Shown here piece after piece: positions 41,412-62,946 of a stretch of 64,000 nucleotides of DNA. The position numbers and the translations under genes were made by a program. Each line of letters opens with the position of its first letter. The first letter of the stretch is position 1. Location of the stretch: the sequence record PZ445511.1, one strand, 5' to 3'. This DNA comes from a phage. A model generated the notes under the pieces. The model made no database searches, was not told where the DNA came from, and worked only from the letters and a program-made list of their open reading frames with translations.

Positions 41412-42108
41412 GGCGTTTTCCTTTCTCTTTATCGAGTTTCAGTGCAGCTTTAACAGCTTCATTAACCAACGTGATAACTTCTTCACGGCCCCATTTAAAG
41501 CCAAGAGCTTTAACATCAACTCCCAGCTTTTCCAGATGTTTAACAGAAGCTAATTCGTAGTGCATATAGTGAACGTTCTGTTGTTTACCTTCTGATAACA
41601 ACCAAACACGATAGCAACCAACTGGGTTAGTCATTGCTTTCTTGATTTCACCAATACACTGATAGCCAGGAACCCAAACAAGTTCACCAACTTCAAATTC
41701 CTCTGCCATTGCATCATCAGGAATCAACGGAGGATTCAATGGATCAACAATATCATTTAAACGAAGCAGAGCACCATAACGTTCCAGAACAGATTTAATC
41801 ATCGCTACAGAACGATAGTTACGATCTGCGATTTCTTCAAAAGAATCACCAGAAAGATACTGTTCAATTACGTTTGCAAGCTCAACACCTTCAATCAGTG
41901 TTCCGCGCTTCTTCTTTTTCATTTCCGCAACCTGAACCTGACGATCCCTCCATTCCTCGATCATTCGTTCCATAGTTGGGTTAGAAGAAACACCGAGCAT
42001 TTCACATGCTGCTTTCTTAGTACCACCGTTCTCCAGATGTTCAATGACCTTTTTAAAGGTTTCATCAGGGATTTCATGGATAAGTTTCTTTCTACGAGAA
42101 CCAGCCAT
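41404..42108 (-). CDS. Hypothetical protein, possible HTH DNA-binding
   Basis: 234 aa; N-terminal helix-turn-helix-like segment (GTKKAACEMLGVSSNPTMERMI). Confidence 0.45.
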   Translation of the reverse strand: MAGSRRKKLIHEIPDETFKKVIEHLENGGTKKAACEMLGVSSNPTMERMIEEWRDRQVQVAEMKKKKRGTLIEGVELANVIEQYLSGDSFEEIADRNYRSVAMIKSVLERYGALLRLNDIVDPLNPPLIPDDAMAEEFEVGELVWVPGYQCIGEIKKAMTNPVGCYRVWLLSEGKQQNVHYMHYELASVKHLEKLGVDVKALGFKWGREEVITLVNEAVKAALKLDKEKGKRRE

Positions 42109-42176
42109 ATTTAAACTCCTCTCTCAAATTTATGAATCTATTATACAGAAAATTTTTCCTGAAAGCAAATAAATTT

Positions 42177-42410
42177 TTACGATTCTTTGAGCAAAGAAGC
42201 AAGTTCAGCATAGACTTTATCTAACTCAAAGCCAATGCGAAGAGACACACGAGTCTTCCGTTGTTTAAGTAACCATATGGAGACGTTAGGGATGCCAGCG
42301 AGACGAGGTGGTACAACCCTACATAGTTTCTCCGCAGTATCGTAAACAGAAGTTTTACGTTCTTTTACGGGAAACTTCCTTGTTTCCCACTTTTTATTCT
42401 TCACTATCAT
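42177..42410 (-). CDS. Hypothetical protein
   Basis: Small ORF; start placed at ATG 42410 after GGGAG RBS. Confidence 0.35.
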   Translation of the reverse strand: MIVKNKKWETRKFPVKERKTSVYDTAEKLCRVVPPRLAGIPNVSIWLLKQRKTRVSLRIGFELDKVYAELASLLKES

Positions 42411-45183
42411 TTCTAGCTCCCAATTCAGCAAGAGCTTCCTCGTGCATCTGACGTTCTTCGTCTGTCATAAACTTAACTGGAATCGGCATACATTCGATCT
42501 TACAGTAAGTTCTGTACCAGTCCACAATCTTTTCCGTATCCAGATCTTTACCGATACCCATCATGCCAAGATACATACGAGCATATTTTGGGTTAGCACT
42601 CTGACCTGTCTTAAGGAAGAAATCCTTCTTCTTATTCTTAAGAGCTTCAATAAACGGTTTGATTGTTACGTTTGAACACTTCTTGATATCTTCCCAGAAC
42701 ATATCGTGCATCTTATGGAAAAATGCAGCTCGATCATTCGGTTTATCCTTGATATACTGTTCAACATGTTCCACTGTTACATCTTTAATAGAATCCAGAT
42801 GATAATAGCGAACCAGAAGTAACTTGGCTTCATATGCATCTGCATGACGTGGTGCGCAGTATTCAGGAGTTGAGTGCAAAATAGCTTTGATTCGCTCTTC
42901 TGTATACTCTTTGCCTGCACCTTCGATAGTTCCCCAGCTTTCACTGAAAATATCAATAGTTGCACCTTGATCGAGAAGATAATAACGCAAAGTACTGGTA
43001 TAGTTTCTAGATTCCAGCTCACGACGACGTGCGTACAGTTGCTGAGCTAACTCAATCCAACCCTCGTCAATATTATATTGCTCGGAACCCGCAGAGAATC
43101 CACTCGTAGATTTATCAATAAAATAATAAATGTTCTGAGCACCACGGTCGCGCCTGATTGCTTGGAAACGCATGTTTGGCGCTTGGTTTGAGGTTCTAGT
43201 GATTACGAATACGTTATCAAAATAGTTAAAGTCAACACCACTCGTTACAGATGGACTACATAACAAACAATCAATCTGTTGATCAATTAGCTCATTAGTT
43301 GTATAATCCAGAATACGTCGAATATCTACGTCTGATGTAGAGTTTGAGTGAATTTCTTTAACTAACGCACCAGTATTACGACGTAATGCCATTCCCTTTT
43401 CATTCAGTTCATCCGGTCCACAGTCAGATACTAGGATTGATTTCTCACCCATCTCTAGAGATGTTTGAAGTGCGACCCAAATACTGGATTCATCAGGGAA
43501 TTCATAAGCATGAGCTTTCGCCAGCATTTTACGGTGATGATTATAGAATGCAACTGGTTTATCAAAATCAATCAAAGAACCATAGGCTTCAATCGTTTCT
43601 GCACTGATATCACCATCAGATAAGATCACCGTTTTAGCAGTAATAAGAATATCGCGAAGGACCTGTATACATTCACGACGGTTTTTAACAACCGGAGCGA
43701 ATAACAGATCATTCATTACTGCGTCACATTCATCAATAAAGATCGTATCAATCTGACCCACAAAGCTCTTGAACTTATGGATAGAGTGAATAGTTGAAGA
43801 CATACGATCAATGGCACCACGTTTGAAGTTCAGCATATCAACTGACTTATCATACTGACCAGCACCGAATTTCTTCGCGTTTGAAGATACAAGTGCCCTA
43901 GTATTCGTGATTGCAATAAAGTTTCCTGGAAGAACACCTGCATCTAGCCACTTAGTTACTGCTGTGGTTTTACCTGTACCAAGACTTGCCTTAACAAATG
44001 TTAAATGTCCTTTTGGTGGTACAATGTTAATTTTCAGGTATGGAACTTCTGGCGGTGAATCTGTGTCCAGACGCTTTAGTGGTACACCTTTTAAGTTGGG
44101 TGGAATCTCACGTTTGGAGTTATTCACAAAGGCTTTTAGAGCCTGCTTACGACCGTTATTAAAGTAATCTTGAATATTACGACTATTATCTTTAGTTGCA
44201 ATATATTCAGATAAAGCTGGTTTAATCTCACGTTCTAACCACGTAAAGTCAACACCATCTTCTAACGCTCTGTGATAAAGTTTTGGGATAATACGCAGGT
44301 ACACCCCATCCTCAGCTTCTTCTAGTTCGCTGATGGTTTCTTCCACTTTATCAGATGCAGCTTTCTTGCCTTTAATTTGGTCAAGTAAGGAGTAGAATTC
44401 TTCTTTAAACTCACCTCTAGTTGTTTCAAAGTCAACTAGGTTATTGGGTAGATTCACTTTCGAACCCTTAACATACACAAGACGTGGTTTATTCTCCGCT
44501 TTAAACGGATCGACTATACCATCATCAAACAAGGGATCTGCGAAATAGTGAAGCTGAACAGAAGAATAATAAGCTAAGTCAGCAATATCAAAGCCATACT
44601 TTTGCTTACTACTGTCATTGATAGATGTAAATAAGAACTTTAACTGTCCCTGCGTTACCTTGACATTAGATTCTAGCATTAAGTGCATTCGGATACCTGG
44701 TTTTAATCCAGCCGAAGACGATGCATGGGCAATAAACCCTGCATCAAGAGGAAACATATCCTCACTAATACTATTCAACATCTTAATAATATGACGTGCC
44801 ATGCCAACAAGATTAAACTTGTCATAGCCACCAGTATCTACAATACCATCCACGTCCATAGCGATAATATGACTAGGATTGGATACGTTAAAGTTTCCTC
44901 TGGTACGACGCACATTATCTTTTGGAGCTAGACATTTACCACGAATAGCTACAATATGCGGGTCTTTGGTAAGACGACGCATGATAGGTAACATTTCAGC
45001 AAGGTTTTGCGGGTCAAGTTCTTCAAGTACATCAAATTTGAAGGGCATGGAAGCTGGTTTACCTTCTGGATGCTCTTTAGAGAATCGCTTTGCAAAGGTA
45101 TAATCTTCCACTTTGATCTCTTTCCAGATGCCAGTGGCTTTATCTCTGGAAAATCCTGCGTGACCTTGTAGGATTGAGAACAC
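42394..45183 (-). CDS. Large ATPase/helicase, putative replication initiator (T5 D2-like)
   Basis: Walker A GTGKTT, DECD Walker B; start uncertain (GTG 45183 after AGGAG; the ORF track extends to 45306). Confidence 0.6.
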   Translation of the reverse strand: MFSILQGHAGFSRDKATGIWKEIKVEDYTFAKRFSKEHPEGKPASMPFKFDVLEELDPQNLAEMLPIMRRLTKDPHIVAIRGKCLAPKDNVRRTRGNFNVSNPSHIIAMDVDGIVDTGGYDKFNLVGMARHIIKMLNSISEDMFPLDAGFIAHASSSAGLKPGIRMHLMLESNVKVTQGQLKFLFTSINDSSKQKYGFDIADLAYYSSVQLHYFADPLFDDGIVDPFKAENKPRLVYVKGSKVNLPNNLVDFETTRGEFKEEFYSLLDQIKGKKAASDKVEETISELEEAEDGVYLRIIPKLYHRALEDGVDFTWLEREIKPALSEYIATKDNSRNIQDYFNNGRKQALKAFVNNSKREIPPNLKGVPLKRLDTDSPPEVPYLKINIVPPKGHLTFVKASLGTGKTTAVTKWLDAGVLPGNFIAITNTRALVSSNAKKFGAGQYDKSVDMLNFKRGAIDRMSSTIHSIHKFKSFVGQIDTIFIDECDAVMNDLLFAPVVKNRRECIQVLRDILITAKTVILSDGDISAETIEAYGSLIDFDKPVAFYNHHRKMLAKAHAYEFPDESSIWVALQTSLEMGEKSILVSDCGPDELNEKGMALRRNTGALVKEIHSNSTSDVDIRRILDYTTNELIDQQIDCLLCSPSVTSGVDFNYFDNVFVITRTSNQAPNMRFQAIRRDRGAQNIYYFIDKSTSGFSAGSEQYNIDEGWIELAQQLYARRRELESRNYTSTLRYYLLDQGATIDIFSESWGTIEGAGKEYTEERIKAILHSTPEYCAPRHADAYEAKLLLVRYYHLDSIKDVTVEHVEQYIKDKPNDRAAFFHKMHDMFWEDIKKCSNVTIKPFIEALKNKKKDFFLKTGQSANPKYARMYLGMMGIGKDLDTEKIVDWYRTYCKIECMPIPVKFMTDEERQMHEEALAELGARNDSEE

Positions 45184-45745
45184 AACAATACTCCTATGTT
45201 GGTTATTCGAATATCTTTCTTTAGGACTATTCAAAAGAATAGAACAACTATTACTACCATTTACACAAACATTAATCATCATCAAGCAGTATGAATAAGT
45301 TATCATACCTCAGTGCTGCGCTCTCTTAACTCTTATCCAGATCAGAACCTAGGTCATTGGCCGCTAAGCCAATTCTGATTGCCCTCACTATCCTATTGGT
45401 AGGTGGCTACTGGACGTGTCACCATTCGCTGCTCTTTTCGTTCGCACCCCCATATAAAGCTCTGCCTATATAACGAGCTAAATATGCACGGTTTGGATTT
45501 ACCTTTCCGAATTCAGGGTACGCAGATCACTTAATTGATAATTAACTAATGCAGTATAAACACTAGTAATAGTTAAAACAACCCTTAATGGGGCAGCCTA
45601 ACTGTTCCGTATTGCGGACTGTAAACAAGAAAAATTAGCAAAATCAATTTTTACTAATGTCTCTCAATTCAATATAAATATTATATCAAGATTTTGAGCA
45701 TCCTGCAAGTAAAATTTTTCCGAAGGTGCTATCAGTGTCTTTGAG

Positions 45746-45777
45746 CACAGAGAAAACCGAGCCAAAATGACTCGGTA
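45746..45777 (-). terminator. Rho-independent terminator after the 131-aa paralog
   Basis: ACCGAG-loop-CTCGGT hairpin followed by TTTTCTCT on the - strand. Confidence 0.55.
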
Positions 45778-45799
45778 ATCAGGATTGGGCTAACGAAAA

Positions 45800-46195
45800 T
45801 CAATCATCATTTAGACCTGGGACATAGATCCCAATGCGATTTAATTGACCTTTAGCTTCTTCGAGAATATCTTCGGTGTACTCCCAAATATCATCTTCTA
45901 CTTGCAAAAGATAAGGGGATTCACCAGTTTCGGGGTCACGTGTAATGGCTAAGCCACGTGGATGGAATATAGAGAAGTTGAGGGCAACAATCAAGCCCAT
46001 GCTGGACAATTCATTCCAGTCAGCTTCCCAACCATCATCTTCATCTTCGTCCACAAAGACACCTACACTAGGGTCTGTTACAGAAGTAAACGGAAATGTT
46101 ACACTAACCTTGTCAACCCCCAACCAACGTGCAAGGAGCCCCTCAGCACGCTCTACCAAACTAGGATCTATCTGACGCCAAAATACTTGTTCCAT
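45800..46195 (-). CDS. Hypothetical acidic protein (tandem paralog 1)
   Basis: 131 aa; shares W-ELxxMGL-xALN...TGE-P...PGL pattern with the adjacent 142-aa ORF. Confidence 0.5.
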   Translation of the reverse strand: MEQVFWRQIDPSLVERAEGLLARWLGVDKVSVTFPFTSVTDPSVGVFVDEDEDDGWEADWNELSSMGLIVALNFSIFHPRGLAITRDPETGESPYLLQVEDDIWEYTEDILEEAKGQLNRIGIYVPGLNDD

Positions 46196-46204
46196 TCTGC
46201 CTCC

Positions 46205-46633
46205 TTAAGCAGTTAAACCTGGGATCATATACCCGAAACGACGAAGTTTCTGAATCCCCTCATTTACTTCCTCGGGCGAATATGACCAGCCCTCACTTTC
46301 ATTTACCTGGAAAGCAGGAGCTTCACCAGTGCGATAATTTACAATAAGACGGTGATTTGCAGGCATAAACAGCTTATGGTTCAAGGCAAAAACCAGACCC
46401 ATTTCATCGAGTTCTTTCCAGTCTACAATCTCTTCTACTCCCTCCCCTAAATCCACGCTAACTCCAATACACGGAGCTTCCTCTAGTGGGCCTTTAAAAG
46501 ACAGGAAGATATCGTTATTCTCACACCAAATCTTAAGCAGATTGATGGTTTCATTGTACATACCATTAGGGAGAGAACGCCAGAAGTTGAGGAGCATAGG
46601 ATTTACCTCTTTCATGAAAATATTATTGAACAT
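46205..46633 (-). CDS. Hypothetical protein (tandem paralog 2)
   Basis: 142 aa; paralog of 45800-46195. Confidence 0.5.
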   Translation of the reverse strand: MFNNIFMKEVNPMLLNFWRSLPNGMYNETINLLKIWCENNDIFLSFKGPLEEAPCIGVSVDLGEGVEEIVDWKELDEMGLVFALNHKLFMPANHRLIVNYRTGEAPAFQVNESEGWSYSPEEVNEGIQKLRRFGYMIPGLTA

Positions 46634-47296: not shown

Positions 47297-47479
47297 TTAA
47301 AAATCTTCTTCACCATATTCTCCCTCCTTAATAAGGAACTCTTTCCATTCTGCTGTATCCTCATAGATAACGCAGAAATCATCACTCTTCCATGAGAAGT
47401 CATCAGTAGCAAATTCAAAACGGTAGCACCAACTACCGTCTGGCCATACTAAAAGATCACACATGCTTTTCTGGGACAT
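47297..47479 (-). CDS. Small hypothetical protein, translationally coupled to the Sir2-like gene
   Basis: GGAGGG RBS and ATG embedded in the last codons of the Sir2-like ORF; 60 aa. Confidence 0.35.
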   Translation of the reverse strand: MSQKSMCDLLVWPDGSWCYRFEFATDDFSWKSDDFCVIYEDTAEWKEFLIKEGEYGEEDF

Positions 47480-48308
47480 AAATATTTCCCTCCATAAAAG
47501 CTTCAACTTGATCAATAAAGTGTTTATTACCAAAAACTTCGGCAGCTCCAGCACGCCATACAGTAACACCACGTTTCTCATATTCAAGCTGTTCATCATA
47601 GCGAACTTGAGGGTTAACAACCATCATCTTAGTTCCACGACATACAGCAGGGAATAGTTCCCAGTTGAAGTCAATCACTTGGTTGCTACAACCTACTACA
47701 ATAACCATATCATTGCTAGTAAGTGTATCAAACAGGTTAATCTGACCCATATACCACGGAGCCGTCTCACCAAAGAATGTTACGTTTGGTTTTACCCATT
47801 CGTAATCTTCAGGAACAATTGCAGTGTATCCAACATCTTCGATGATTTGATTGCGACCCCGACGATAGATCACCTCTTTCAAGTACCCGTGAGCGTGAAT
47901 GATTTCATCACGAGGGATACCAGCACGTTCCAGAAGGTCATCAACGTTAGTAGTGAAGTTCTTCACGCTATCCGCACCATAACGCTGGAACCATTCTGCA
48001 ATTCGCAGATGGGCAATGTTAGGCTCAACAGTCTGTAATTCCTGACGACGCATGTTGTAGAACTCATGAGTCTTGAGATACAGATCGTTACCCTCTTCAT
48101 CAATGCCAGGGAAACGAGCACTGAAGTAGTTAGGATCATCTTCACCACAGAAGCGACGGAAGCCAGCTTCAAAGTTAGGCAAGCTACATACTTCCTCTAG
48201 ATCGTACTCATCCCACAAAGATTTTCCACTAGCAGTATCAGTACGGAAAGCACGAACACCACTATCAACACTTAAACCAGCACCACTAACAATGATTAGT
48301 CTACGCAT
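47457..48308 (-). CDS. Sir2-like (sirtuin family) NAD-dependent protein
   Basis: GAGLSVDSGVRAFR, TTNVDDL, HG, PNVTFFGE sirtuin motifs; no CxxC...CxxC zinc module. Confidence 0.7.
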   Translation of the reverse strand: MRRLIIVSGAGLSVDSGVRAFRTDTASGKSLWDEYDLEEVCSLPNFEAGFRRFCGEDDPNYFSARFPGIDEEGNDLYLKTHEFYNMRRQELQTVEPNIAHLRIAEWFQRYGADSVKNFTTNVDDLLERAGIPRDEIIHAHGYLKEVIYRRGRNQIIEDVGYTAIVPEDYEWVKPNVTFFGETAPWYMGQINLFDTLTSNDMVIVVGCSNQVIDFNWELFPAVCRGTKMMVVNPQVRYDEQLEYEKRGVTVWRAGAAEVFGNKHFIDQVEAFMEGNIYVPEKHV

Positions 48309-61858: not shown

Positions 61859-62497
61859 ATGACTACTCGTATCTCTAAAACTCGTGCTCTGGCAACTATC
61901 AAGTCTCTAGAAGCTAAAATCCGTAAAGCTACTGAACAACAGCTTTTGATTGCTGTTGGTGAAGGTAAGGATAAGAACCAAGTTGTAGTTGGCGCTGCAA
62001 TCGAAGTAGATGCTCTGTCTACTCGTATTAAGACTGATTTCCAGTCTCTGTTGGATATGATGTCCCAGCGTGATCATCTGAAAGCAGCGCTGATCAAGAG
62101 CAATGCTGAAACTGTTGTAGAGATCGGTTCCCGATCTATGACTGTTGCGGAAGCAATCGAAGCTAAGCGTTCTATGGAACTCAAAGCTCAGTTGCTGGCT
62201 AACATGCGTAAGCAGTTCCATGCTGCTACTGTTAAGTTTAACACTCAGAAGGCTCAGTTTGATAACAAGTATGAGCGTTTGCAGGATACCATGGCTACCC
62301 GCGACAAGAAGACTTCTGAGGATGAAGTTAAGATGCAGCTTAACCTGCTGGAACTCAAGAACACTCCGTTCCTGATCGATCCGCTGGAGCTGGAAAAGCT
62401 GATCAAGCAACACGACGAAGAATACCAGGATTTTGCAACCAACGTTGACTTTGTTCTGTCTGAGTCCAACGCCTCTACTTTTATCGAAGTAGAGTAA
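61859..62497 (+). CDS. Hypothetical protein
   Basis: 212-aa helical ORF, high-expression codon usage. Confidence 0.45.
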   Translation: MTTRISKTRALATIKSLEAKIRKATEQQLLIAVGEGKDKNQVVVGAAIEVDALSTRIKTDFQSLLDMMSQRDHLKAALIKSNAETVVEIGSRSMTVAEAIEAKRSMELKAQLLANMRKQFHAATVKFNTQKAQFDNKYERLQDTMATRDKKTSEDEVKMQLNLLELKNTPFLIDPLELEKLIKQHDEEYQDFATNVDFVLSESNASTFIEVE

Positions 62498-62946
62498 TGA
62501 TTTAAAAGACTAGTAAATCGGTAGACGAAAGCCCAAGCATCTTACCTCGCAGCAGCGGTTGAAATACGAGGTTAAATAAGACCGCTGACCATACTATAAA
62601 GTATAATCTATTGGAGATTATCTTAATTTATTTTTCGGCAGATGTTGCATCTGTCAAAATAAAACAAGACGTCGTTGGTAGTACCAACACAACTTCAAAG
62701 ATCAACGCTCAAGTATGAAAGCTGAAAAGTTAAAAGCACTCAAACTTCTAACCTTCTAAAGCTAAAAGATGCAAAGTATTCGTTGATGATTCAAACCCTA
62801 GATCAAAGGTACATGGCTCATAAGATATGGCCTGTGGCGCCTCTAGGCTGTTTATCGGTTTACTAGTTTCACAATTTAAAAATGTATTTGCTAATTAGTT
62901 TAGTTTTCTGTATAATATATTTTTAAATTGATGAGACGAGGCTATT

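What the first reader, a model, noticed from the sequence alone, without database searches (positions are those of the whole stretch)
45310..45660. ~350-nt untranslated region between an early promoter and the D2-like helicase gene
A T5-type promoter on the - strand (TTGCAG...TATAAT, about 45660-45715) is followed by roughly 350-470 nt with no credible ORF before the D2-like start (45183 or 45306). The region is GC-richer than neighbouring intergenic DNA and contains short hairpins (for example ATTGGC-CGCTAA-GCCAAT at 45355-45372). Early genes elsewhere in the window have leaders under 60 nt. It could be a structured leader or small RNA, a replication origin beside its initiator gene, or a remnant of a deleted gene.
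Basis: seen in the sequence. Interest (0 to 1): 0.45.

Follow-up and report, generated by a model that had tools for sequence, protein, structure and literature searches.

The report
New structured RNA before T5 helicase gene
The "empty" 490 bases between an early promoter and the replication helicase gene of this T5-like phage encode a large, intricately folded RNA, kept in shape by compensating mutations across many T5-like phages, unannotated and in no RNA database, with unknown function.

Summary
A T5-type early promoter (-35 45708-45703, extended -10 45688-45680, minus strand) is followed by about 490 nt with no credible ORF. The D2/obp gene then starts at GTG 45183, not at ATG 45306.

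The gap is neither a decayed gene nor an iteron or DnaA-box origin. It is a structured RNA of about 440 nt (45666-45227). Its parts are a 5' hairpin, a small conserved hairpin, and a roughly 40-bp AU-rich stem that closes a GC-rich multi-helix core.

The helices covary within and between at least seven sequence-unrelated lineages of enterobacterial T5-like phages. One-sided changes go through G·U pairs, which points to RNA on the obp-sense strand. A covariance model seeded only on another core type finds the window's copy at the right place.

Nothing matches in Rfam 15, E. coli genomes, plasmids or bacterial species genomes, and I found no paper describing it. Function is not established. My best guess is an RNA domain co-transcribed with obp, perhaps excised at the long stem, and tied to obp expression or replication initiation.

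The parts
45756..45776 (-). Intrinsic terminator of the upstream DUF7415 gene. It marks the upstream boundary of the transcription unit.
   Evidence: 9-bp stem followed by a T run. The homologous site is annotated as a terminator in T5.
45680..45708 (-). Early sigma-70 promoter: -35 TTGCAG at 45708-45703, 17-nt spacer, extended -10 TGATATAAT at 45688-45680. The predicted transcription start is near 45673.
   Evidence: for the sequence. It is homologous to T5 promoter T5P32. In some relatives a different promoter feeds the same RNA start. The transcription start is inferred, not mapped.
45627..45665 (-). P1, the 5' terminal hairpin. The outer helix GAGAGA/UUUCUU (with G·U pairs) encloses the inner helix UUAGUAAAA/UUUUGCUAA.
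   Evidence: The inner helix covaries between lineages, with 42 of 43 positions paired. With only 4 lineages the partner-permutation test is weak, 201 of 5000 permutations reaching the observed value.
45578..45622 (-). P2 region. It holds the conserved motif AUACGGAACAGUUAGGCUGC (45612-45593), which contains the small hairpin CAG-UUAGG-CUG.
   Evidence: The motif is conserved in lineages A-G. The pair CAG/CUG becomes CGG/CCG in L085.
45535..45575 (-). P3 5' arm, one side of the long AU-rich closing stem (about 35 bp in two segments).
   Evidence: and inverted repeat I1. Cognate arms pair at -30 to -46 kcal/mol against about -20 for non-cognate arms, across 7 sequence types.
45521..45530 (-). 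Pa 5' strand, GUG-AU-CUGCG: a 3-bp extension, a conserved AU bulge and a 5-bp helix at the base of the core.
   Evidence: 72 of 72 positions paired in 9 lineages and 7 of 8 columns covary. None of 5000 partner permutations reached this.
45321..45520 (-). GC-rich multi-helix core. It includes the 5' subdomain, the junction GAAUGGUGA (GAGAAGUGA in most lineages), helix GUCCAG/CUGGAU, the AAUA-loop hairpin and the UUAGCG domain.
   Evidence: The covariance models place the half-core at 45434-45323.
45341..45379 (-). UUAGCG domain.
   Evidence: CUUAGCGG is invariant in all enterobacterial lineages. The outer helix is paired at 48 of 50 positions, with 4-5 pair types per column.
45313..45320 (-). 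Pa 3' strand, CGCAG-CAC.
45288..45309 (-). P3a hairpin, GGUAUGA-UAACUUAU-UCAUACU, between Pa and the P3 3' arm.
   Evidence: A hairpin with a different sequence sits at the same place in other lineages.
45245..45285 (-). P3 3' arm.
45227..45242 (-). 3' hairpin CUAUUC-UUUU-GAAUAG, followed by the invariant UCCUAAAGAAA.
   Evidence: Invariant in core types A, B and C. A hairpin with a different sequence is seen at the same place in L062 and L064.
45181..45198 (-). Translation start region of D2/obp: RBS AGGAG at 45195-45191 and GTG at 45183-45181. A small hairpin puts the Shine-Dalgarno sequence in its loop.
   Evidence: The T5 annotation uses this start.
42394..45183 (-). D2/obp, a UL9-like SF2 helicase and candidate replication initiator. 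It is the downstream gene of the same transcription unit.
   Evidence: Pfam Herpes_ori_bp, residues 391-533. Published work on T5 D2 is in PMC3632103.

Best explanation
Shown. The region is transcribed-strand-specific structured RNA. An early sigma-70 promoter starts a transcript whose first ~440 nt (45666-45227) fold into a conserved architecture:
- P1, a 5' hairpin
- P2, a small conserved hairpin
- P3, a closing stem of about 35-40 bp
- Pa, the helix at the base of the core
- a 5' subdomain
- a conserved junction
- helix X1, which encloses a hairpin and the UUAGCG-loop domain
- P3a, a hairpin between Pa and the P3 3' arm
- a 3' hairpin

With no intrinsic terminator in between, the transcript runs on into the D2/obp gene. 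The fold is maintained by compensatory substitutions in at least seven lineages of enterobacterial T5-like phages whose core sequences are otherwise unalignable. It belongs to no Rfam family.

Inferred: how it most likely works. The RNA is an autonomous folded domain that acts as RNA. The long P3 duplex is the kind of substrate RNase III cuts in rRNA precursors and in T7 early mRNAs. I therefore think the ~330-nt core is excised as a stable RNA. The rest would become the mature obp mRNA, which then begins near the conserved CUAUUC/GAAUAG hairpin.

The invariant loops (UUAGCG, UNNGG) and junction nucleotides would be contacts for a phage or host protein. Because the RNA is always co-oriented with and directly upstream of the candidate replication initiator, I expect it to set the level or timing of obp, or to work with it at initiation.

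Confidence is about 0.9 that this is a functional structured RNA on this strand. It is about 0.4 for the processing and obp-linked mechanism.
For: Structure and covariation:
- The MFE has z = -4.2. Sense-strand folds are 10-45 kcal/mol more stable than antisense in 7 of 8 lineages.
- Within type B (18 sequences), 99.8% of cells are paired. 30 cells changed on both sides, against 10.4±2.4 in shuffles (0 of 500 reached it) and 0-7 in slid controls. All 14 one-sided changes pass through G·U.
- Within type A (the window's type, 16 sequences) there are 153 pairs: 6 compensatory, 11 one-sided through G·U, 3 with rare breaks.
- Between lineages, Pa is paired at 72 of 72 positions and the UUAGCG outer helix at 48 of 50. 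None of 5000 partner permutations reached either value. The two helices hold 7 G·U pairs and no A·C mismatch.
- P3 arms pair only with their cognate partner.

Covariance models:
- A model seeded only on type-B half-cores finds lineages G, E, C, D and the window's type-A copy, each full-length and at the right position.
- On that alignment 21 of 24 pairs changed on both sides, and 91.4% of cells are paired against 67.9% when shuffled and 31-45% when slid.
- The second-round model also finds T5 and My1, neither of which was in its seed.

Selection. The leader is 94-98% identical between the window and T5, while the flanking genes are 67-88% identical.

Transcription:
- The T5 promoter is annotated.
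- A different promoter is joined to the same RNA start in relatives that carry a homing-endonuclease insertion.
- There is no terminator before obp.

Autonomy. In L066 and L064 obp has its own strong promoter downstream of, or inside the 3' arm of, the RNA.

Duplex length fits an RNase III substrate.
Against: - No expression, 5'/3'-end or processing data were available, so the transcription start, RNase III cleavage and stability of the core are all inferred.
- A cis-regulatory leader that is never excised would fit the synteny equally well.
- No conserved expression platform was found. There is no terminator. The small Shine-Dalgarno hairpin in types A-C is invariant apart from one G·U change, so it has no covariation support, and L062 shows no equivalent.
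- The long stem could serve only to close the fold.
- The curated inter-lineage helices were chosen by eye, and the model-made alignments lean towards the model's structure.
- Homology of the long non-coding gaps in Vibrio and Aeromonas T5-like phages was not shown. The models do not hit them.
Confidence: 0.45

Rival explanations
1. A purely cis-acting regulatory leader of obp, either a protein-binding operator or a riboswitch-like sensor. It would stay part of the mRNA and tune translation, stability or elongation of the obp transcript, for example through autoregulation by D2.
For: The RNA is always directly upstream of obp and co-oriented with it, from Tequintavirus to Providencia phages with 55% D2 identity. 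No terminator or second promoter lies before obp in the window or in T5. A small hairpin presents the Shine-Dalgarno sequence and covers the start codon in types A-C.
Against: About 440 nt with ten or more helices is far larger than known bacterial cis-regulators. No conserved expression platform was found. L066 has a 12/12 consensus promoter, and L064 a 10/12 one, between the RNA and obp, so obp can be expressed without the leader there. T5-like genomes are collinear, so synteny alone is weak evidence.
Confidence: 0.25
2. A replication-origin element that works through its transcript. This could be a structured pre-primer or R-loop-forming RNA (like ColE1 RNA II or the T4 oriF/oriG transcripts) that starts leading-strand synthesis next to the initiator gene.
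For: It lies next to the candidate initiator helicase D2 (PMC3632103). It sits at about 48.7% of the T5 genome; from memory, electron microscopy placed the first T5 origin near the middle of the molecule (Bourguignon 1976, which could not be read). It has a strong promoter followed by about 500 nt of structured untranslated RNA, flanked by AT-rich DNA.
Against: No iterons. No DnaA-box cluster. No GC-skew switch at the site. No antisense promoter inside the element. No match to the ColE1 RNA families in Rfam. The transcript continues into an ORF, unlike RNA II. Nothing here tests hybrid formation.
Confidence: 0.15
3. A DNA-level structure, such as a cruciform, a single-strand initiation signal or a protein-binding DNA palindrome, rather than an RNA.
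For: A long inverted repeat is present at 45246-45266 / 45554-45574. Watson-Crick covariation alone does not distinguish DNA from RNA.
Against: Helices tolerate G·U but not A·C. All 14 one-sided changes in type B and all 11 in type A go through G·U. In the two best curated helices there are 7 G·U pairs and no A·C mismatch. Sense folds are much more stable than antisense folds. The promoter is placed exactly at the 5' end of the first helix, even when the promoter itself is replaced.
Confidence: 0.03
4. A decayed protein-coding gene, or the scar of a mobile element, with no function of its own.
For: The core differs completely between close relatives, as if it were a swapped cassette. Homing-endonuclease genes insert nearby. 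Some annotators call small ORFs here.
Against: No ORF is conserved in any lineage. The called ORFs have no PHROG family. Within a type the region is more conserved than the neighbouring genes. Substitutions are paired across helices. The same architecture recurs in every core type.
Confidence: 0.02

Closest known systems
Large structured non-coding RNAs of unknown or recently glimpsed function that occur in phages and bacteria (GOLLD, ROOL, OLE, raiA, HEARO)
   Same: Size class of several hundred nucleotides. Many helices supported by covariation, with invariant loops and junctions. Phage-borne, like GOLLD and ROOL. Found by comparative analysis without a known function.
   Different: No match to any of their Rfam models, even at E = 10. 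The architecture is different, with a roughly 40-bp AU-rich closing stem. From memory, GOLLD and ROOL usually lie near tRNA genes, whereas this RNA is fused to the 5' end of the obp transcript. It is restricted to T5-like phages.
ColE1 RNA II pre-primer, and the R-loop origin transcripts of T4 (oriF/oriG)
   Same: A sigma-70 promoter drives about 500 nt of highly structured, untranslated RNA, here at the start of the phage's cluster of DNA-replication genes.
   Different: No antisense RNA I-type promoter. No sequence or model similarity. The transcript reads into a gene. No evidence for a persistent hybrid or for an origin at this site.
RNase III processing stalks (E. coli rRNA precursors, T7 early mRNA sites)
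   Same: A long imperfect duplex formed by sequences flanking a folded RNA, conserved as a structure but not as a sequence.
   Different: Cleavage is not shown. The stalk is AU-rich and about 35-40 bp with internal loops. No comparison with known cleavage-site rules was possible with the tools at hand.
Structured leaders of phage replication genes (satellite phage P4 CI RNA and its leader upstream of the alpha primase-helicase; T4 gene 43 and gene 32 operators)
   Same: RNA structure upstream of a replication protein gene, transcribed from an early promoter.
   Different: Those elements are tens of nucleotides to about 100 nt long and have defined partner sequences or proteins. No repeated complementary target sites were found here. 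This comparison rests on my own knowledge of those systems.

Membership tests
Any Rfam 15 family (4227 models, including RNase P, tmRNA, 6S, T-box, riboswitches, GOLLD, ROOL, OLE, raiA, HEARO, ColE1 RNAI, group I/II introns, small ribozymes) | A covariance-model score at or near the family's gathering threshold | tested here: not met
   In the window at 44500-46500 with E up to 10, there were only three chance-level hits, at 12-21 bits against thresholds of 55-127, and none lies over the core. Ten relatives' loci searched with E up to 1 gave nothing over the element.
tRNA / tmRNA | A cloverleaf or tRNA-like domain detectable by ARAGORN | tested here: not met
   No tRNA or tmRNA genes in the whole window.
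Protein-coding gene or pseudogene | A conserved reading frame or protein homology | tested here: not met
   No sense-strand ORF of 25 aa or more between 45664 and 45306. The ORFs called in relatives have no PHROG family. No ORFs of note in L066. Substitutions are paired rather than codon-patterned.
Structured functional RNA (general) | Base pairs maintained by compensatory changes, more than in controls | tested here: met
   (type B). (type A). (curated helices between lineages). (21 of 24 pairs changed on both sides; 0 of 500 shuffles reached this).
Structured functional RNA (general) | Strand specificity: G·U tolerated, A·C not | tested here: met
   Sense versus antisense MFE.
Cis-regulatory leader or riboswitch | Located in the 5' UTR of the regulated gene | tested here: met
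   Promoter, then RNA, then obp, with no terminator. The same order holds in all enterobacterial lineages sampled.
Cis-regulatory leader or riboswitch | A conserved expression platform, either a terminator/antiterminator or a Shine-Dalgarno-sequestering helix | tested here: inconclusive
   No intrinsic terminator. The Shine-Dalgarno/start-codon hairpin is present in types A-C but nearly invariant, so it has no covariation support. L062 shows no equivalent. A second promoter lies before obp in L064 and L066.
Iteron or DnaA-box replication origin | Clustered direct repeats or DnaA boxes next to an AT-rich unwinding region | tested here: not met
   No direct-repeat family of note. One 8-of-9 DnaA-box match at 45333-45341 and no cluster, with window-wide counts at chance level. 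AT-rich flanks do exist.
ColE1-type RNA II / RNA I origin | An antisense RNA I promoter within the pre-primer, and persistent RNA:DNA hybrid formation | tested here: not met
   No plus-strand promoter-like site inside 45227-45666. Hybrid formation cannot be tested with these tools.
RNase III processing stalk | About 20 bp or more of duplex formed by the flanks of the excised RNA | tested here: met
   P3 has 19 + 16 bp in the window and is conserved as a duplex in 7 sequence types.
RNase III processing stalk | Staggered double-strand cleavage that depends on rnc | not testable with these tools
   This needs Northern blots or 5'/3'-end mapping in rnc+ and rnc- hosts.

The most novel reading that the evidence does not exclude
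The element is a new class of large functional RNA, either a ribozyme or the RNA subunit or cofactor of a ribonucleoprotein. It would work together with the UL9-like initiator helicase D2 in starting T5 DNA replication, for example as a structured pre-primer or origin-marking RNA. That would identify the long-sought T5 origin mechanism. The equally long non-coding gaps upstream of obp in Vibrio and Aeromonas T5-like phages would be its divergent homologues.
Probability: 0.15. Interest if true: 0.85.

Novelty: new variant of a known kind. Interest (0 to 1): 0.68.

Why it matters
T5 is a classic model phage, and T5-like phages are widely isolated for biocontrol, with hundreds of sequenced genomes. 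Yet this ~440-nt element is unannotated in nearly all of the records sampled and sits at the head of the gene for the presumed replication initiator. Some annotation pipelines cover it with spurious small ORFs or a wrongly extended D2 start.

Large bacterial or phage RNAs with this many covarying helices are rare, and they have repeatedly turned out to be ribozymes or ribonucleoprotein scaffolds. A new one in a tractable phage is directly testable by deletion, compensatory mutagenesis, Northern blots in an rnc mutant and pull-downs.

It could also bear on two open questions for T5: how obp expression is controlled, and where and how replication starts. At the least it deserves an Rfam family and corrected annotation.

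Tried and rejected
Database and homology searches:
- Rfam at permissive thresholds on the window and on ten relatives gave nothing. ARAGORN found nothing.
- A pattern joining the P2 motif and CTTAGCGG at their conserved spacing gave 34 hits in IMG/VR. Of these, 31 are T5-like; three are from high-GC metagenomic contigs, and the one of them (L098) whose match includes an AT-poor non-coding stretch also shows no P1, Pa or P3, so all three are taken as chance matches. A stricter form of the pattern gave 0 hits in 185,579 bacterial and archaeal species genomes.
- No blastn match in E. coli genomes or plasmids. This rejects a host homologue, RNA mimicry of a host RNA, or a prophage origin.
- The metagenome scan added only one new lineage, L085.

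Sequence features:
- The other three CTTAGCGG sites in the window are not hairpins.
- Iterons, DnaA boxes and GC skew give no origin signature.
- The junction motif GAGAAGTGA or its complement occurs nowhere else in the window.

Alignment methods:
- MAFFT alone cannot align the cores between types, and its structure-aware modes are not installed. I therefore used curated helices, cognate versus non-cognate duplex energies, and covariance models.
- A long-range pairing of UUUUUCUU with AAAGAAA, predicted once by RNAalifold, came from a misaligned P1 and is not supported in other lineages.
- Pairing of the UUAGG and UUAGCG loops with CCUAA and GCUAA is possible in some lineages but is not kept in D, G or C. 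This was judged by eye.

Downstream protein:
- The D2 N-terminal domain has no Pfam family and no PDB homologue.

Literature:
- Six searches found no description of the element.
- The T5 anti-retron factor Rad is a protein encoded in the tRNA region and is not this element.
- The BF23 paper discusses only the non-coding region between first-step and second-step DNA transfer.
- Bourguignon 1976 is not held in the library.

Full report
**Context.** The window is a T5-like phage genome segment. The 651 nt around the finding are 99.5% identical to Salmonella phage SLAM_phiST45 and 92% identical to T5. Everything described here is on the minus strand.

The upstream gene, a DUF7415 protein, ends at 45800. 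Its terminator lies at 45776-45756.

**Checking the observation.**
- The promoter is real in sequence: -35 TTGCAG at 45708-45703, a 17-nt spacer, and an extended -10 TGATATAAT at 45688-45680.
- The homologous T5 site is annotated as early promoter T5P32 in one T5 record and as a promoter in the other. Both records leave the ~470 nt down to obp empty.
- No sense ORF of 25 aa or more lies between 45664 and 45306.
- The D2/obp start is GTG 45183 with AGGAG at 45195-45191. Protein conservation across lineages starts there.
- The ATG at 45306, used by some PHANOTATE annotations, lies inside the RNA structure.
- GC reaches 0.46-0.52 at 45300-45500, against 0.27-0.36 in the flanks.
- In T5 the other early promoters end 3-83 nt before their genes, while T5P32 ends 472 nt before obp.

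The leader is about 490 nt long, and the element reaches to about 45227.

**It is a folded RNA.**
- The window sequence folds to -139 kcal/mol, z = -4.2 against dinucleotide shuffles.
- The sense strand folds much better than the antisense strand, -140.7 against -103.5 kcal/mol. The same holds in 7 of 8 lineages.
- The consensus fold of the window's own sequence type, mapped to window coordinates, is given and has these parts:
  - P1, the 5' hairpin (45665-45627)
  - the P2 region, with the motif AUACGGAACAGUUAGGCUGC (45612-45593)
  - a long AU-rich stem P3 (45575-45535 with 45285-45245)
  - helix Pa with a conserved AU bulge (45530-45521 with 45320-45313)
  - a GC-rich multi-helix core
  - hairpin P3a (45309-45288)
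  - a 3' hairpin (45242-45227)

**Relatives.** I collected the region upstream of obp from several sources:
- IMG/VR
- metagenomes
- GenBank phages

A promoter about 470-630 nt upstream of obp, with no ORF in between, is present in every lineage sampled:
- Tequintavirus and Epseptimavirus
- Klebsiella phages (73% D2 identity)
- two metagenomic lineages (69% and 66%)
- Pectobacterium phage My1 (65%)
- Providencia phages (55%)

A further lineage at 62% D2 identity, L066 (host unknown, probably a Proteus phage), has its RNA promoter about 770 nt upstream of obp.

Between the window and T5 the leader is 94-98% identical, while the neighbouring genes are 67-88% identical. Between the window and 'type B' phages such as DT57C, the flanks of the leader stay 77-98% identical but the core drops to 40-62%, which is effectively unalignable. 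The core therefore exists as exchangeable sequence types set in a conserved frame.

**Covariation within types.**
- Type B (18 distinct sequences):
  - 137 predicted pairs, with 99.8% of cells paired.
  - Five pairs have double changes.
  - 30 cells changed on both sides, against 10.4±2.4 after shuffling (0 of 500 shuffles reached this) and 0-7 when partners are slid.
  - Every one of the 14 one-sided changes is a G·U intermediate.
- Type A (16 sequences including the window):
  - 153 pairs, 6 of them compensatory.
  - 11 are one-sided through G·U.
  - 3 have rare breaks.

**Covariation between types.**
- The P3 arms of seven sequence types pair with their own partner at -30 to -46 kcal/mol. 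With foreign partners they reach only about -20.
- In hand-curated strands, Pa plus its 3-bp extension is paired at 72 of 72 positions in nine lineages, and 7 of 8 columns vary.
- The outer helix of the UUAGCG domain is paired at 48 of 50 positions in ten lineages, with 4-5 pair types per column.
- Permuting partners among lineages never reached the observed pairing in 5000 trials.
- These two helices contain 7 G·U pairs and no A·C mismatch.

**An independent check with covariance models.**
- I built a model from type-B half-cores only: 118 nt, 24 pairs, 9 sequences. It found full-length matches at the expected position in other lineages:
  - lineage G: 62 bits
  - lineage E: 27 bits
  - lineage C: 24 bits
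  - lineage D: 19 bits
  - the window's type A: 15.3 bits, E = 0.1, at 45434-45323, the best hit in the window
- On the resulting nine-sequence alignment, 21 of 24 pairs have changes on both sides. 91.4% of cells are paired, against 67.9% shuffled and 31-45% slid.
- This alignment is fitted to the model, which favours the structure, but the controls are far below the observed values.
- A second model built from that alignment also finds T5 (36 bits) and My1 (35 bits), which were not in its seed.
- It gives weak full-length hits at the right place in the Proteus-like and Providencia lineages (E 0.2-1).
- It finds nothing in the Vibrio or Aeromonas phages.

**What it is not.**
- No Rfam 15 family matches, even at E = 10, and there is no tRNA or tmRNA.
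- There are no iterons and no DnaA-box cluster. There is no GC-skew switch at the site and no antisense promoter inside the element.
- No homologue exists in E. coli genomes, plasmids or one-per-species bacterial genomes.
- In IMG/VR the two-motif pattern hits only T5-like contigs, apart from three matches in unrelated high-GC contigs that I take as chance.
- The small ORFs some annotators place here have no PHROG family.
- The type-A core is present in 277 GenBank phage records. In 13 of the 14 records sampled across the ranking, no feature is annotated under the match.
- Six literature searches found no description of it.

**Clues to function.**
1. There is no intrinsic terminator before obp, so in the window and in T5 the RNA is the 5' part of the obp transcript.
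2. In relatives with a homing-endonuclease insertion, a different promoter is fused to the same RNA start. Transcription of exactly this RNA is therefore what is preserved.
3. In L066 a 12/12 consensus promoter lies 40 nt before obp, in addition to one before the RNA. In L064 a 10/12 promoter lies inside the P3 3' arm. So the RNA is not merely the way obp gets expressed.
4. P3 is a duplex of about 35-40 bp, conserved as a structure only. From established knowledge this is the form of RNase III processing stalks.
5. D2 is a UL9-like bipolar helicase proposed as the T5 initiator (PMC3632103). The locus lies at about 48.7% of the T5 genome.

**My reading.** I conclude, by inference, that the RNA is an autonomous folded domain. 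It is probably excised at P3 and is functionally tied to obp expression or to replication initiation. I give this mechanism about 0.4. I give about 0.9 to the underlying claim that this is a functional, strand-specific structured RNA.

The rival readings are:
- a pure cis-regulatory leader (0.25)
- an RNA-primed or R-loop origin (0.15)
- a DNA-level structure (0.03)
- a decayed gene or mobile-element scar (0.02)

**Comparison with known systems.** In size and complexity it resembles the large structured RNAs GOLLD, ROOL, OLE, raiA and HEARO. In position it resembles ColE1 RNA II or structured leaders of phage replication genes. It is not a member of any of these, because the model-based membership tests fail. 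It is best described as a new family of large structured RNA specific to T5-like phages, with function still open.

**Limits.**
- No expression or end-mapping data were available.
- The transcription start and the processing step are inferred.
- The inter-lineage helices were partly chosen by eye.
- My models cover only a 118-nt part of the core.
- Homology with the 0.7-1.6 kb non-coding gaps upstream of obp in Vibrio and Aeromonas phages is unproven.

Noticed in passing
L003:1629-2220, L004:1609-2202, L017, L019, L034 (insertion point corresponds to about window 45627): An optional extra domain of 89-97 nt is inserted right after P1, between two copies of TTTTTCTT. It occurs in core types A, B and C, in 51 GenBank phage records, once per genome, and is never annotated. 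It looks like an accessory RNA domain rather than a multicopy mobile element.
   Followed up: partly
L013, L016, L026, L083 (upstream of the RNA); L029:1888-2503: Some relatives carry an ORF that looks like a homing endonuclease upstream, together with a different promoter (TATAGTATAAT...CATAAATGAGAGAC) joined to the same RNA 5' end. L029 has both promoters and a duplicated P1 hairpin.
   Followed up: partly
window 45184-45306; L076, L077: PHANOTATE-based GenBank records start D2 at the ATG equivalent to 45306, adding 41 residues read from the RNA's 3' part. They also-50-aa ORFs inside the RNA that have no PHROG family. These are likely annotation artefacts.
   Followed up: yes
L074:18-1609 (Aeromonas phage TS3); L071:1005-1717 and L072:628-1732 (Vibrio phages Chloris and phi 3); L073:1108-1732: Distant Demerecviridae also have 0.7-1.6 kb without credible ORFs upstream of obp. 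TS3 has three UUAGCG-type hairpins, one of them embedded in an ACGGAAC...GUUAGGCU context that resembles the P2 motif. The two Vibrio phages share conserved islands. My covariance models do not hit these regions, so homology is open.
   Followed up: partly
L066:705-733 and 1435-1464: The L066 lineage has two perfect 12/12 sigma-70 consensus promoters. One starts about 700 nt of ORF-free sequence that contains a GCCUUAGCGGGU hairpin, with a second, similar GCCUUAGCCG motif near -85. The other lies 40 nt before obp.
   Followed up: partly
window 45800-46195 and 46205-46633 (minus strand); 47457-48308: Two paralogous DUF7415 proteins lie directly upstream of the element, preceded by a Sir2-like gene. 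Their function is unknown. DUF7415-like C-termini also precede the RNA in My1 and in the Klebsiella lineage.
   Followed up: no
window about 42000-42480, compared with T5 62388-62906: T5 has a putative HNH endonuclease gene right after obp. The window lacks it, and identity to T5 drops to 32-58% there.
   Followed up: no
window 45181-45198: A small hairpin, CAUAG-...-UUGUG, puts the AGGAG in its loop and the GTG start in its stem. In types A-C it varies only through one G·U change. L062 shows no equivalent.
   Followed up: partly
window 45649-45657, 45601-45597, 45367-45362, 45635-45631, 45224-45220: UUAG recurs in the P1 5' strand, in the P2 loop (UUAGG) and in the UUAGCG loop. CUAA recurs in the P1 3' strand (GCUAA) and in the 3' tail (CCUAA). 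Alternative or tertiary pairings are possible, but covariation in lineages C, D and G does not support them.
   Followed up: partly
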